Assembly (NCBI GenBank): GCA_951406725.2 | Contig: OX597840.1 | Span: 36,084,001 to 36,148,000 of the forward strand | Source of the DNA: Octopus vulgaris | Taxonomy: Eukaryota | Reading direction: 5' to 3' | Length of the DNA stretch: 64,000 nt | Part shown: piece after piece, positions 19,928 to 41,712 of the stretch | Position numbering within the stretch: the first letter of the stretch is position 1 | Layout of the letters: each line of letters starts with the position of its first letter | Program-made: the position numbers

Positions 19928-22900
19928 CATGTATATATATATATATATATATANNNNNNNNNNNNNNNNNNNNNNNNNNNNNNNNNNNNNNNNNNNNNNN
20001 NNNNNNNNNNNNNNNNNNNNNNNNNNNNNNNNNNNNNNNNNNNNNNNNNNNNNCCAGCCCCAGCCCCAGCCCCAGCCCCAGGCCCTGGCCCTGGCCCTGG
20101 CCCTGGCCTGGCCCTGGCCCTGGCCCTGGCCTGGCCCTGGCCCTGGCCCAGCCCTGGCCCCTAACCCCCTGGCCCTAACCCTAAGCCTAACCCTAACCCT
20201 AACCCTAACCCTAACCCTAACCCCAACCCTAACCCTAAACCCAACCCCAAACCCCAACCCTAACCCTAACCCTAACCCTAACCCCAACCCTAACCCTAAC
20301 CCTAACCCTAACCCTAACCCTAACCCTAACCCAACCCTAACCCCCAACCCCAAACCCTAACCCCAACCCCAACCCCAAACCCTAACCCTAATTTAATAAT
20401 ATGCGAGGGAGTAACTCTAGAAAGGGAGATAACTAAAAAAAACTCTTCCAGGGTTACCTCCCTTACATCTAATTAAATTACTATTATGTATTATTAAATT
20501 GAAATGTTCAAGGGAAGTAACTCTAGAAAGGGAGATAACTAAAAAAAATCTCCCAGTTACCTCCCTTACATCTAATTCAATTACTATTATTTGTTATTAA
20601 ATTGATGTATTCAAGGGGAGTAACTCTAGGAAGGGAGATTTACTCCCCTTGAATACTTCAATTTAATAACACAATAGTAATTTAATTAGATGTAAGGAGG
20701 TAACTCTGGAAGATTTTTTAGTTATCTCCCTTTCTAGAGTTACTCCCTTGAACATTTCAATTTAATAATACATAATATTAATTTAATTAATGTAAGGGAG
20801 GTAACTCTGGAAGATTTTTTAGTTCTCTACAGAGGAAGATAACTAAAAAATCTTCCAGAGTTACCTCCCTTACATCTAATTAAATTACTATTATGTATTA
20901 TTAAATTGAAATGTTCAAGGGGAGTAACTCTAGAAGGGAGATAACTAAAAGATCTTCCAGAGTTACCTCCCTTACATCTAATTGAATTACTAATATGTAT
21001 TATTAAATTGAAATATTCAAGGGGAGTAAATCTCCTAGAGATATATAAAAAAAATCTTCAAAAGTTACCTCCCTTACATTTAATTAAATAACGACTATTA
21101 TCAAACTGTGTCATGGAAGCTAATTAACTCTACAATATAATGTTCAGACGTAACACTTTTACTCCTTTCCTTGTTTAGTCATTTCAATGTGCCCATGCTG
21201 CAGCACAGCCTTTTCTAGAGTAAATCGACACTAGGACTTTTATCTACGTCAGTCTAGTATTTATTCTGTTGGTCTTTTCCCGAACGGATAGATTAATGGA
21301 GTGTAAAATTCACCGACATCGCTTGTGAAACGGTTTTGGGGACATCGAAACACACACATATATACATATATATAAACATCTATATGTATATACATGTTTC
21401 TCTATATATATATATATATATTGCAGAAACAATACTGCTGTCTTTAGTGTTCCCACTGATATTGACGTAAGAGAAGCGAACGAAGTTGACTCCCAACACA
21501 AAATTGCAGACATAACCTTCACTCCCTCTGACATCGTAGCAGCAATAAATGAGGTCAAATACTACTCTGCTGTAGGCCCTGATAGATTCCCCGTTAGTCT
21601 CCTGAAGGAATGTAAACACCAACTTGCAGTCCCACTGACCAACCTCTGGAGAAATTCGTTAGATGCAGGTATATACCAAAACAGTTTCTATCCCAGTCAG
21701 TCATCCCGGTTTTCAAACAGGGAAACAGATCCCTCGCACTCAACTATCGCCCAATCTCACTCACCTCCCACATCATAAGTGTTTGAAAGGGTGTTAAGAT
21801 CAAGGATGGCTGACTTCCTGGAGACCCACAAACTCCTATATGCAAATCAGCATGGCTTTCGCTGTGGCAGGGACTGTCTAACACGGCTCTGACACCACAT
21901 TGAAGATGTACTCAAAGCCTTGGGAACAGGTTCGAACTCTGATGTCATATATCTTCACTTCAGTAAAGCGTTCGACAGGGTAGACCATAATATCCTACTC
22001 TCAAAATTGGCAAATGTTGGAATCCGTGGAAAAGTTCTACACTGGATCAAGTATTTCCTGGCGAATACAACACAACATGTTGTAGTTGATGGAGTCCACT
22101 CAAGCCAAGCAAAAGTCACCAGCGGTGTCCCTCAGGGGTCTGTCTTGGGTCCGCTACTCTTCATAATCTACATAAACGACCTTTCCAGTGTCGTACATTA
22201 CTGCAAAGTGAACATATTTGCTGATGACACCAAGCTCCAGCAAATCGTCAATGAAGAAGCAGACCGATCCAGGTATGTAGATACGGGGTGCTTAACACTC
22301 GCAAATCTGGAGTCACTAAAGGTGCAATTGAACTTCTTTTCATTTAGAACTTAGGGATCTGCAAATGTCGGTATCTTAGAGATGCTTAAAGTGTTTGTTC
22401 TAGCTGTAATTGTCGCATACAAACAGACGCTCACACACGTATACACAGAAATAAAAACATTCACACAAACACAAACACTGAAATGAAAACAGTTACATAC
22501 CTACACATGCACACACACAAAAGAAATGAAAATAGTCACACACAAACATACGCACCCACACAGAAATGAAAACGCAGTTACACATTCACACATAAAACCC
22601 TAACTAGCATAAACATACAATTTATTCAGAATGTAGAGGGGCATTGGGTGCTTTGCACTCGCAGTTAGAATATCAGCTCCTTCCACGCCAGAATTAGAAT
22701 TTCTGTCATCCACTTGTGAAATTAATACATTGACGACACATGGGAAAAATATGAGCAACATCTGAAGCCACTAAAGGTGCAATAAATTGAACTTATTTGT
22801 ATTAGTAGTTAGTGATATATGAATATCGACGTAGGAATGGCTGTTGTAAGTAGTTTGCTTACGAACCACATGGTTTCGGGTTCATTCCCACTGCCTGTCA

Positions 22901-23251
22901 TCTTCTGCAATTGTTACTATTGTAGCCCAGGGCCTAGCAAATCCTTGTGATGGGATTAAGTGAAAGGAAATTGATAGAATCTCGTCGTATATACGTTTAA
23001 ATGTGTGTGTGTGTGTGTGCGTGTGTGTGCATGTGCGTGTGTGTGTGTGCGTGTGTGCGTGCGTGTGTTTGTGTGTGTCTGTGTATGTTCGCACTCGAAG
23101 GGCACACGAGAATGCACGCACGTACTATCACACATACAGATGCAAGTTTTCTTAATAAAACGGAATGAACTCCCATTCCATCCCTTACAGTTTCTTTTTT
23201 GTTTTAGATACTACATATACGTGTGTTGGTATATTCACGTATATCTGTATG

Positions 23252-40800: not shown

Positions 40801-41712
40801 GAAATGAAAACGCAGTTACACACTCACACATAAAACCCTAACCGTAACTAGCACAAACATACAATTTATTCAGAATGTAGAGGGGCATTGGGTGCTTTGC
40901 ACTCGCAGTTAGAATATCAACTCCCTCCACGCCTATATTAGAATTTCTGTCATCCACTTGTGAAATTAATACATTGACGACACATGGGAAAAATATGAGC
41001 AACATCTGAAGCCACTAAAGGTGCAATAAATTGAACTTATTTTGATTTAGTATTTAGTGATCTCAAAAGTGGATATCTTACAAATGGTCAAAGTGTTTGT
41101 TGTAGTTGTAAGTGTCGCACACACACAAACAAATAGAAACACTCAGTCGCTCACACACTCGCGCACACAGAAATAAAAACACTCTCACACACAAACACTG
41201 AAATGAAAATACCCACACTCACATAAATAAAAACAGTCCCACACACACAAGGAGCCCCAATAGGTATATCAAAAAAGTTTCTAGTATTTTTCCTAGCCCA
41301 TAATTTATGATAATTGAAATTCTTACAATGAATAAATACCTACTAAATCAGTATATCGAACATTACGTCCCCGTAACTTATCGGTTCTGCAAAAGAGACC
41401 TATACATTAAGTAATAGGCATACAAAGAATAATTCCTGGGGTTGATTTGCTTCACTAAAGGCAGTGCTCCACAATGGTCACAGTGAAATAACTGAAACAG
41501 TCTAAGGGAGATAACTACAAAGTATCTTCTACAGTTACTTCCCTTGAATATTATAATTTAACAATAAAAAAATATGAAGGGAGATTAACTCGCGGAAGGG
41601 AGATAACTACATAACATCTTCCAGAGTTACTTTCCTTACATACAATTATATTACTTTTAATAAATTATAATGAGCAAGAGGAAGTAACTTTCGAATATAT
41701 TATTCAGACATG

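What the first reader, a model, noticed from the sequence alone, without database searches (positions are those of the whole stretch)
20054..41700. Modular subtelomere: a buried old telomere restarts the same module series
Seen: [CCCTAA tract - 105-bp repeat - old SINE - CR1 fragment - shared blocks] begins at 20054 and again at 36603, in the same orientation. The 15-bp and 34-bp satellites lie just distal to the inner tract. Inference: the end grew by adding a ~16.5-kb subtelomeric cassette onto a former telomere, leaving a short telomeric spacer, analogous to yeast Y' elements. This could reflect recombination-based end remodelling in a lineage where I know of no description of subtelomere structure.
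Basis: partly seen in the sequence, partly recalled or inferred. Interest (0 to 1): 0.75.

Follow-up and report, generated by a model that had tools for sequence, protein, structure and literature searches.

The report
Duplicated chromosome-end block with buried telomere stub
A stretch next to a probable chromosome end carries a second, older copy of the same end-sequence series, which begins at a short, decayed stretch of telomere repeats; the same pattern is already known from human and yeast chromosome ends.

Summary
Only two telomere-like tracts exist in the window, both C-rich on the + strand. One is 20054-20391 (338 bp) and the other 36603-36660 (58 bp, 2 of 11 units canonical). Each is followed at once by a ~102-bp repeat array, a reversed old SINE piece, one shared 5'-truncated LINE insertion and shared "S" blocks. 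The two series are collinear, with 91.8% substitution identity.

- The outer tract abuts a 100-N gap, so it is a contig start and not a scaffold end.
- Its (CCCTGG)n part matches a published nanopore miscall of CCCTAA.
- Only about 3.25 kb of the "16.5-kb cassette" recurs. The other 12.7 kb is satellite plus an older S copy, and no cassette gene exists.

Best reading: a distal chromosome tip was joined onto a shortened telomere, leaving a variant-rich stub. This is the arrangement described for human subtelomeric duplicon boundaries. The yeast Y' analogy holds only loosely. Nothing could be tested across the genome, and the organism was not identified. I rate it a new member of a known kind, of modest interest.

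The parts
19954..20053 (.). 100-N assembly gap. It separates an unrelated contig (1-19953, ending in (AT)n) from the contig that starts with the telomere tract.
   Evidence: Only N run in the window; sequence read. Not filled or looked up.
20054..20391 (+). Outer telomere tract, C-strand. 20054-20172 is CCCCAG/CCCTGG units and 20173-20391 is CCCTAA-type. Of 56 units, 22 are CCCTAA and 10 are CCCTGG. Its proximal 58 bp are variant-rich.
   Evidence: CCCTGG is a published nanopore miscall of CCCTAA (PMC9414165, passages).
20392..21089 (+). Telomere-adjacent ~102-bp repeat array in three blocks: direct (20398-20639), inverted (20636-20828), direct (20825-21089).
   Evidence: TRF periods 103/101/102; 9 inverted-repeat pairs, 84-98% complementary.
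21090..21420 (-). Spacer holding an old SINE 3'-half in reverse orientation (about 21195-21324) and an (AT)n run (21358-21421).
   Evidence: 21195-21324 matches 33521-33651, which matches the S-block SINE half 23730-23838 in inverse. SINE family alignment.
21421..22267 (+). LINE fragment, copy A: 5'-truncated, reverse-transcriptase part, cut off at 22267.
   Evidence: RVT_1 E=1.9e-16; alignment with copies B and C.
22264..23923 (+). Shared 'S' blocks, copy A. They include an old SINE 3'-half (about 23730-23880) and the start of a 102-bp-like unit.
23935..32872 (+). 15-bp satellite, 604 copies, 76% matches.
   Evidence: start read. No match with up to 2 mismatches outside the arrays.
32886..33268 (+). 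34-bp satellite, first array (11.4 copies).
33269..35027 (+). Region with S' (33898-34832), an older and more diverged S copy that has a 102-bp-like tail (34438-34628).
   Evidence: 74-78% identity to S copies in A and B; alignment.
35028..35170 (+). 15-bp satellite, second array (9.5 copies).
   Evidence: It has the same 15/34 junction linker as at 32860-32900.
35184..36602 (+). 34-bp satellite, second array (41.9 copies). Its last unit is truncated where it meets the inner tract.
36603..36660 (+). Inner telomere-like tract, C-strand, 58 bp. 2 of 11 units are canonical; edit distance to perfect (CCCTAA)n is 9.
36661..37379 (+). ~102-bp repeat array, copy B. It starts in an inverted unit that corresponds to A 20672. 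That unit is interrupted by a younger SINE insertion (about 36766-37090). Direct units follow.
37380..37705 (-). Spacer with the reversed old SINE piece, copy B.
   Evidence: Lies within the 20836-21911 = 37115-38198 alignment.
37706..39272 (+). LINE fragment, copy B. It has the same 5' junction as A, a 129-bp internal deletion relative to A and C, and continues about 850 bp further 3' than A.
   Evidence: RVT_1 E=7.5e-13; ORF 38538-39272.
39273..40676 (+). B-only stretch absent from A: (TA)n, a SINE fragment at 39621-39846, and CA-rich minisatellites.
40677..44928 (+). S blocks, copy B, with an internal tandem duplication (41016-42513 against 43186-44928, 95-97% identity).
57238..59137 (+). 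LINE copy C, used as the reference. It has an apurinic-type endonuclease ORF and the start of the RT, and it is not next to telomere repeats.
   Evidence: Exo_endo_phos_2 E=1.6e-11; 95.6% identity to 21456-22106.

Best explanation
This is a structural relic, not a working device. The contig that starts at 20054 is most likely a true chromosome end. It carries a terminal C-strand telomere tract followed by a ~102-bp telomere-associated repeat array.

The series that starts at 36661 (array, reversed old SINE, 5'-truncated LINE, S blocks) was most likely once the end of a chromosome as well. Its telomere shrank to the variant-rich base. A distal chromosome tip was then joined onto that stub. The tip carried its own copy of the same subterminal series, and on its inner side 15-bp and 34-bp satellites with an older S copy. 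The joining could have been a terminal translocation, by end joining or by break-induced copying.

Afterwards the two copies diverged by about 8% in substitutions. Each suffered its own deletions, a SINE inserted into the inner copy, and the satellites and S blocks changed copy number.

Shown: the anatomy, the single origin of the two copies, and the position, orientation and degeneracy of the inner tract. Inferred: that the outer tract is terminal, that the inner tract was once terminal, and how the join was made.
For: 1. Only two telomere-like tracts exist in 64 kb. They have the same strand and orientation, and each abuts a ~102-bp array.

2. The two series are one duplicated segment, not independent insertions. 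They share the same LINE 5' truncation point, the same upstream flank, and a 12-bp insertion that copy C lacks. They are collinear over five blocks covering about 89% of A 20672-23923.

3. Neither copy is the parent of the other. B has a 129-bp LINE deletion and a SINE insertion. A lacks the LINE 3' part and B 38425-40676. They are therefore two diverged loci and not one locus assembled twice.

4. B starts exactly at the inner tract, at a point equal to A 20672. That is 280 bp deeper in the array than A's telomere junction, as expected for an end that was independently eroded or healed.

5. The inner tract is 9 edits from perfect repeats in 58 bp. The proximal-most 58 bp of the outer tract is 8 edits away, and the middle of that tract only 1. 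With 8.2% A-B divergence, decay alone predicts only a few changes. The tract therefore looks like the base of a telomere.

6. The outer tract sits at a contig start in the orientation expected for a left chromosome end. It also contains (CCCTGG)n, the published nanopore miscall of long CCCTAA arrays.

7. The same arrangement is documented in human subtelomeres. Internal tracts point toward the telomere, lie at duplicon boundaries, and are flanked by 'subterminal' duplicons. It is explained there by terminal translocation (PMC2323237).
Against: - The outer tract is not at a scaffold end. 20 kb of other sequence precedes it across a 100-N gap, so terminal position is inferred and not shown.
- The canonical repeats lie proximal to the CCCCAG/CCCTGG units. 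If those units are real rather than miscalls, that is the reverse of a normal telomere.
- If base-calling errors affect the tract, some 'variant' units may be errors too, which weakens point 5.
- The inner junction lies between a long satellite array and a short repeat, a place where assemblies can go wrong.
- No reads, no other chromosome ends and no related genomes could be examined. Enrichment of these modules at ends is therefore untested.
- The organism was not identified.
Confidence: 0.55

Rival explanations
1. Assembly artefact at the inner junction. A chimeric read or a graph mis-join in the satellite glued a distal piece onto the start of a telomere-ended sequence, so the 'buried telomere' does not exist in the chromosome.
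For: The junction lies at the end of a 1.4-kb 34-bp array with a truncated unit. The assembly shows signs of nanopore base-calling trouble at the outer tract. The scaffold already holds one questionable join at 19954-20053.
Against: A chimera with a real chromosome end should carry a telomere tract like the outer one (338 bp or more, mostly canonical). It should not carry 58 bp with 2 of 11 canonical units. A and B differ by 8% plus large indels and a SINE insertion, so they are distinct loci.
Confidence: 0.15
2. The scaffold is right, and both tracts are interstitial. The outer tract is a longer interstitial telomeric block where the assembler broke. The region would then be an internal relic of old end-to-end or translocation events, not a present chromosome end.
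For: 20 kb of sequence lies distal to the tract in the scaffold. Non-canonical units lie on the distal side of the tract.
Against: A tract of a few hundred bp would normally be spanned by long reads, so a contig that ends in it suggests the reads ended there (inference). Contig 1 ends in (AT)n and shares only dispersed SINEs with the second contig. CCCTGG is a known miscall of long CCCTAA arrays.
Confidence: 0.12
3. Y'-like system. A discrete cassette is amplified head to tail at many chromosome ends by recombination between telomere tracts, possibly as a back-up for telomere maintenance.
For: A short internal tract lies between two starts of the same series in the same orientation. In yeast, tandem Y' copies are often separated by ITSs, at 145 of 234 junctions (PMC13177704, passages).
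Against: Only about 3.25 of 16.5 kb recurs. The second series is not followed by the satellites up to 64000. There is no ORF apart from LINE RT fragments and frames created by satellite periodicity. The copies are 8% diverged with independent indels, so there is no sign of recent homogenising amplification.
Confidence: 0.1
4. The inner tract was added de novo by telomerase during repair of an internal break, or arose as a chance C-rich microsatellite. It lies next to an ordinary segmental duplication.
For: It is short (58 bp), as inserted ITSs typically are (size class recalled, not checked here).
Against: It would have to fall by coincidence exactly on the duplication boundary, next to the same array that abuts the long tract, and in the same orientation. 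Newly synthesised repeats should be canonical, but it is 9 edits off in 58 bp while flanking divergence is about 8%. Chance expectation for even a 12-mer is 0.46 per window.
Confidence: 0.05
5. An array of telomere-targeting retroelements, in which each element is followed by a short telomere tract. Examples would be MoTeR-like elements (seen here only as an abstract start in a search listing) or telomere-specific LINEs and endonuclease-less Penelope-like elements (recalled).
For: A LINE fragment lies in each series with its 5' end toward the telomere.
Against: The LINE is 5'-truncated and lies about 1 kb from the tract, behind the array and an old SINE. A longer copy with an endonuclease sits at 57238-59137, away from any telomere repeat. 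A and B share one insertion event.
Confidence: 0.03

Closest known systems
Human subtelomeric duplicons bounded by internal (TTAGGG)n-like tracts (Ambrosini et al. 2007, PMC2323237; passages read)
   Same: The internal tract is oriented toward the telomere and lies on a duplication boundary. It is degenerate, with motifs like those at telomere bases. The sequence beside the internal tract is homologous to the sequence beside a terminal tract ('subterminal duplicon'). Duplicated blocks keep their orientation. The accepted explanation there is terminal translocation onto a recipient telomere.
   Different: The tract here is shorter: 58 bp against mostly 150-200 bp in humans. Only one end was seen. 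The subterminal element is a ~102-bp direct/inverted array. Two simple satellites make up most of the distal block. The lineage is different and was not identified.
Yeast Y' elements in tandem, separated by interstitial telomeric sequences (PMC13177704, passages read)
   Same: The same subterminal series restarts head to tail after a short internal telomere tract.
   Different: Y' is a discrete 5.2-6.7-kb unit with a helicase ORF and an ARS. It repeats as a whole and is amplified by break-induced replication. Here only about 20% of the distal block recurs, there is no gene, and the copies are old and diverged.
Subtelomeric ITS class in reviews of interstitial telomeric sequences (Aksenova and Mirkin 2019, PMC6410037; passage in section 2.1 read)
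   Same: A block of degenerate telomere-like repeats inside the subtelomere divides it into distal and proximal parts.
   Different: The review states the class for yeast and humans. No adjacent ARS or protein binding can be assessed here.
Nanopore repeat-calling errors at telomeres (Tan et al. 2022, PMC9414165; passages read)
   Same: (CCCTGG)n stands in place of (CCCTAA)n on the C-strand, at the outer part of a telomere tract.
   Different: The (CCCCAG)n units at 20054-20085 are not among the three error motifs named in the passages read. The sequencing platform of this assembly is unknown.

Membership tests
Subtelomeric duplicon bounded by an internal telomere-like tract (human type) | The internal tract has the same orientation as the terminal tract (points to the telomere). 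| tested here: met
   Both tracts are C-rich on the + strand; there are none on the other strand.
Subtelomeric duplicon bounded by an internal telomere-like tract (human type) | The internal tract coincides with a duplication boundary. | tested here: met
   B-series homology to A starts at 36661, the first base after the tract.
Subtelomeric duplicon bounded by an internal telomere-like tract (human type) | The sequence beside the internal tract is homologous to the sequence beside a terminal tract. | tested here: met
   The ~102-bp array and the following modules are found next to both tracts. This holds provided the outer tract is terminal.
Subtelomeric duplicon bounded by an internal telomere-like tract (human type) | The region lies at a chromosome end. 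| tested here: inconclusive
   The outer tract starts a contig in the right orientation and shows the nanopore telomere miscall. But it is joined through 100 N to 20 kb of other sequence.
Subtelomeric duplicon bounded by an internal telomere-like tract (human type) | Copies of the modules are shared among several chromosome ends. | not testable with these tools
Y'-like amplifiable subtelomeric cassette | The whole unit repeats head to tail. | tested here: not met
   Only 20672-23923 recurs. 23935-36602 has no counterpart after the B series up to 64000.
Y'-like amplifiable subtelomeric cassette | The unit carries its own gene (helicase). | tested here: not met
   The only ORFs of 90 aa or more in 20054-36602 are LINE RT fragments and frames created by satellite periodicity.
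Y'-like amplifiable subtelomeric cassette | Copy number varies between ends and individuals, with amplification by recombination. | not testable with these tools
   Needs the whole genome and population data.
Telomere-targeting retrotransposon array | The element's end abuts telomere repeats, and the family is confined to telomeres. | tested here: not met
   The LINE fragment lies about 1 kb from the tract and is 5'-truncated. Copy C at 57238-59137 is away from telomere repeats.
   Shown only as a non-LTR element with an apurinic-type endonuclease and RT. The relatives found carry no clade names.
   A dispersed repeat of about 400 bp is present as 12 or more copies or fragments. No tRNA or Rfam match was found.

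The most novel reading that the evidence does not exclude
The ~102-bp direct/inverted array together with the S blocks is the standard subterminal unit of all chromosome ends in this (possibly cephalopod) lineage. Under this reading, ends are repeatedly rebuilt by copying tips onto eroded telomeres. That would be a recombination-driven, Y'-like turnover of ends in an animal that has telomerase-type repeats, and it would leave a ladder of buried telomere stubs of different ages.
Probability: 0.1. Interest if true: 0.6.

Novelty: new member of a known kind. Interest (0 to 1): 0.3.

Why it matters
If the outer tract is a true end, this is a sequence-level view of how a chromosome end was rebuilt, in an animal lineage for which my searches surfaced no description of subtelomere structure. 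Those were two full-text searches on cephalopod, mollusc and octopus terms.

It would show that the human and yeast rule also applies here: old telomere stubs mark the seams between subtelomeric blocks. It also gives concrete probes for mapping chromosome ends, namely the ~102-bp array and the 15-bp and 34-bp satellites.

There is a practical point for the assembly too. It holds a telomere-tipped contig placed inside a scaffold, with likely miscalled telomere repeats. Curators would want to fix both.

Tried and rejected
- **Timed-out run.** A self-comparison of the whole window timed out on the satellites. I repeated it with five tandem arrays blanked inside the script.
- **15-bp satellite derived from a motif of the ~102-bp unit.** No rotation of the commonest 15-mer matches anywhere outside the arrays with up to 2 mismatches. 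Dropped.
- **Target-site duplication for the SINE in copy B.** The apparent repeat is just the continuation of the interrupted array unit. No duplication is claimed.
- **Identifying the organism.** Rfam gave 0 matches and the tRNA scan gave 0. The LINE endonuclease ORF gave 57 relatives, the best at 37% identity; among its few named rows I noted a Mnemiopsis leidyi protein. A second LINE gave 44 relatives, the best BLASTP local identity being 57% (over 44% of the query; 55% or less on the other rows). The organisms named were Dicrocoelium, Nucella and Octopus bimaculoides, the last at 32%. The Atlas search gave generic endonuclease/RT clusters. No lineage can be called from these. My impression that the SINE resembles octopus SINEs is recalled, not tested.
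- **Telomere-specific retroelement.** Rejected (see rivals).
- **GIY-YIG reading of ORF 45735-46064.** Pfam gives E=0.078 and 13.7 bits against a cut-off of 22.6. It remains a lead only.
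Full report
**What is there**

The window has a single N run, 19954-20053, 100 bases long. The sequence after it opens with 338 bases of C-rich telomere-type repeats, 20054-20391. Parsed into units, these are 56 units:
- 22 CCCTAA
- 10 CCCTGG
- 5 CCCCAA
- 3 CCCCAG
- assorted one-off variants

The CCCCAG and CCCTGG units fill 20054-20172 and the CCCTAA-type units fill 20173-20391.

(CCCTAA)3 with one mismatch allowed occurs 21 times, all in this tract, against none in 100 shuffles.

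A second tract lies at 36603-36660. It is 58 bases long on the same strand, with 11 units of which 2 are canonical.

A looser scan of both strands finds no other telomere-like run. Its remaining hits are a (CCA)n microsatellite at 10991-11886. Two isolated 12-mer near-matches at 31438 and 40836 are at chance level, with 0.46 expected.

**The series after each tract**

After the outer tract comes an array of about 102-bp units in three blocks. These are direct (20398-20639), inverted (20636-20828) and direct (20825-21089). One search gives periods of 103, 101 and 102, and one search gives 9 inverted pairs at 84-98% complementarity.

Next comes a spacer with a reversed, decayed 3' half of a dispersed repeat of about 400 bp. 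That repeat occurs as at least 12 copies or fragments across the window.

Next comes a LINE fragment on the + strand with reverse-transcriptase homology: RVT_1 E=1.9e-16 in A and 7.5e-13 in B.

Last come 'S' blocks, which themselves hold an old SINE half and a 102-bp-like tail.

The same order recurs after the inner tract. The collinear chain is:
- 20672-20767 = 36661-36757 (81.6%)
- 20836-21911 = 37115-38198 (89.6%)
- 22032-22267 = 38190-38425 (95.0%)
- 22433-22816 = 40677-41061 (85.1%)
- 22815-23923 = 42635-43726 (89.1%)

Global realignment of these five blocks gives 2601 matches, 233 mismatches and 127 gap columns, which is 91.8% substitution identity.

**One origin, two diverged copies**

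I aligned the two LINE fragments with a third copy at 58400-59200. That copy continues upstream into an ORF with an apurinic-type endonuclease domain (57238-58488, Exo_endo_phos_2 E=1.6e-11).

The alignment shows that A and B share the same 5' truncation point (about 21421 and 37706), the same upstream microsatellite and flank, and a 12-bp insertion that the third copy lacks. They therefore descend from one insertion and were duplicated as part of a segment.

Each copy has private changes:
- B lacks 129 bp that A and C have (A 21905-22032).
- B holds a SINE insertion at about 36766-37090 inside an array unit.
- A lacks the LINE 3' part and the rest of B 38425-40676.
- B has an internal tandem duplication, 41016-42513 against 43186-44928, at 95-97% identity.

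Neither copy is the parent of the other. At 8% divergence with large indels, they are not one locus assembled twice.

**What lies between the two series**

The interval 23935-36602 (12.7 kb, 77% of the interval between the two tracts) consists of:
- a 15-bp satellite (604 copies)
- a 34-bp satellite (11 copies)
- a 1.76-kb stretch holding S', an S copy only 74-78% identical to the others
- the 15-bp satellite again (9.5 copies)
- the 34-bp satellite again (42 copies)

The linker at the 15/34 junction is the same at 32860-32900 and at 35150-35200, so that junction was itself duplicated. The junctions between S and the 15-bp satellite differ.

None of this recurs after the second series up to 64000. 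So the '16.5-kb cassette' is not shown to be a unit. Only about 3.25 kb of it restarts.

Its only ORFs of 90 aa or more are LINE fragments and long frames produced by satellite periodicity.

**The inner tract as a telomere base**

The B series begins at the first base after the tract, in an inverted array unit that corresponds to A 20672. The inner copy is thus cut 280 bp deeper into the array than the outer telomere junction.

The 34-bp satellite meets the tract in a truncated unit, with no shared sequence.

Edit distance to perfect repeats, in 58 bases:

| Stretch | Edits |
|---|---|
| Inner tract | 9 |
| Proximal-most 58 bases of the outer tract | 8 |
| Middle of the outer tract | 1 |

At the divergence seen in the flanks, decay alone would give only a few changes. 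The tract was most likely already variant-rich when it was buried, as the base of a telomere is. This step is inference. It would be weakened if the variants are base-calling errors.

**The outer tract and the gap**

That first contig ends in (AT)n and shares only dispersed SINEs and one 260-bp match with the second contig.

The tract has the orientation of a left chromosome end and lies at the very start of its contig.

Its (CCCTGG)n portion matches a documented nanopore error. (CCCTAA)n is miscalled as (CCCTGG)n and (CTTCTT)n in 40-60% of telomeric reads across data sets, and this is not seen in HiFi reads (Tan et al. 2022, PMC9414165; passages read).

I take the outer tract to be a real telomere whose outer part is miscalled, and the scaffold join to be doubtful. 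Neither can be shown without reads. The CCCCAG units are not among the error motifs named in the passages I read.

**Most likely history**

A chromosome end carrying the B series lost its telomere down to the variant-rich base. A chromosome tip carrying a paralogous A series, satellites and S' was then joined to it, either by end joining or by break-induced copying that started in telomere repeats.

Afterwards came divergence, deletions, a SINE insertion and changes in array size.

The direct abutment of a truncated satellite unit favours end joining slightly, but the data do not decide between the two.

**Comparison with known systems**

The closest match is the human subtelomere. [quoted passage not shown] They carry motifs known from proximal telomere regions and are often flanked by 'subterminal' duplicons. 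They are explained by terminal translocations (Ambrosini et al. 2007, PMC2323237; passages read).

Reviews treat subtelomeric ITSs as a class shared by yeast and humans (PMC6410037, section 2.1 passage).

Yeast Y' elements are tandem, often separated by ITSs (145 of 234 junctions). They carry a helicase ORF and are amplified by break-induced replication (PMC13177704, passages). The present structure shares only the restart after a short tract.

Telomere-targeting retroelements do not fit.

**Novelty and limits**

Two full-text searches combining octopus, cephalopod and mollusc terms with subtelomere, ITS and satellite terms surfaced no description of subtelomere structure in those groups (listings only). 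That is weak evidence of absence. Subscription journals and bioRxiv supplements were not visible.

The organism itself was not identified. My sense that the SINE looks octopod is recalled, not tested.

No eukaryotic genome collection was available, so enrichment of the modules at other ends, the key test, stayed unchecked.

Verdict: a real and neatly readable example of a known kind of subtelomeric architecture, with an assembly caveat. Interest is modest.

Noticed in passing
window 19954-20053 with 20054-20172: A telomere-tipped contig sits inside a scaffold behind a 100-N gap, and its outermost 119 bases are CCCCAG/CCCTGG units. This is probably a scaffolding misplacement plus nanopore miscalling, and is worth flagging to the assembly's curators.
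   Followed up: partly
window 45735-46064 (+): A 109-aa open frame with a Cys-rich start and a weak GIY-YIG match (Pfam E=0.078, 13.7 bits, below the cut-off). It is possibly a remnant of a Penelope-like element's endonuclease. No RT frame was found beside it.
   Followed up: partly
window 54882-57385 and 59155-61290: A second local duplication at 96-98.6% identity. The first copy holds a SINE insertion at about 55146-55540, and the LINE copy with endonuclease (57238-59137) lies between the two copies.
   Followed up: partly
window 41016-42513 and 43186-44928: A young tandem duplication of the S block and the following about 790 bp, at 95-97% identity. It is much younger than the A/B duplication.
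   Followed up: partly
window 10991-13432: A cluster of G-rich microsatellites, (TGG)n, (GTA)n, (GGT)n, (TGA)n and (AGG)n, plus an 800-bp GT-rich minisatellite of period 48. GC skew is +0.46 to +0.56. It lies in the unrelated first contig.
   Followed up: no
window 61229-63015 (-): A second, different LINE with RT frames (RVT_1 E=6e-13 and 4e-9). Several of its relatives carry C2H2 zinc-finger domains.
   Followed up: no
window 51125-51412 (+): A short frame with a weak Tc3-type transposase HTH match (E=4.9e-5, 24 bits, below the cut-off of 31.5). Probably a decayed Tc1/mariner remnant.
   Followed up: no
window 17918-18445: An inverted repeat with arms of about 165-185 bp at 92-94.5% identity. 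Its nature is unknown.
   Followed up: no
window 35024-36751 (-): Very long stop-free frames of up to 405 aa across the 34-bp satellite, and similar ones across the 15-bp satellite. They result from the repeat periods and are not genes.
   Followed up: yes
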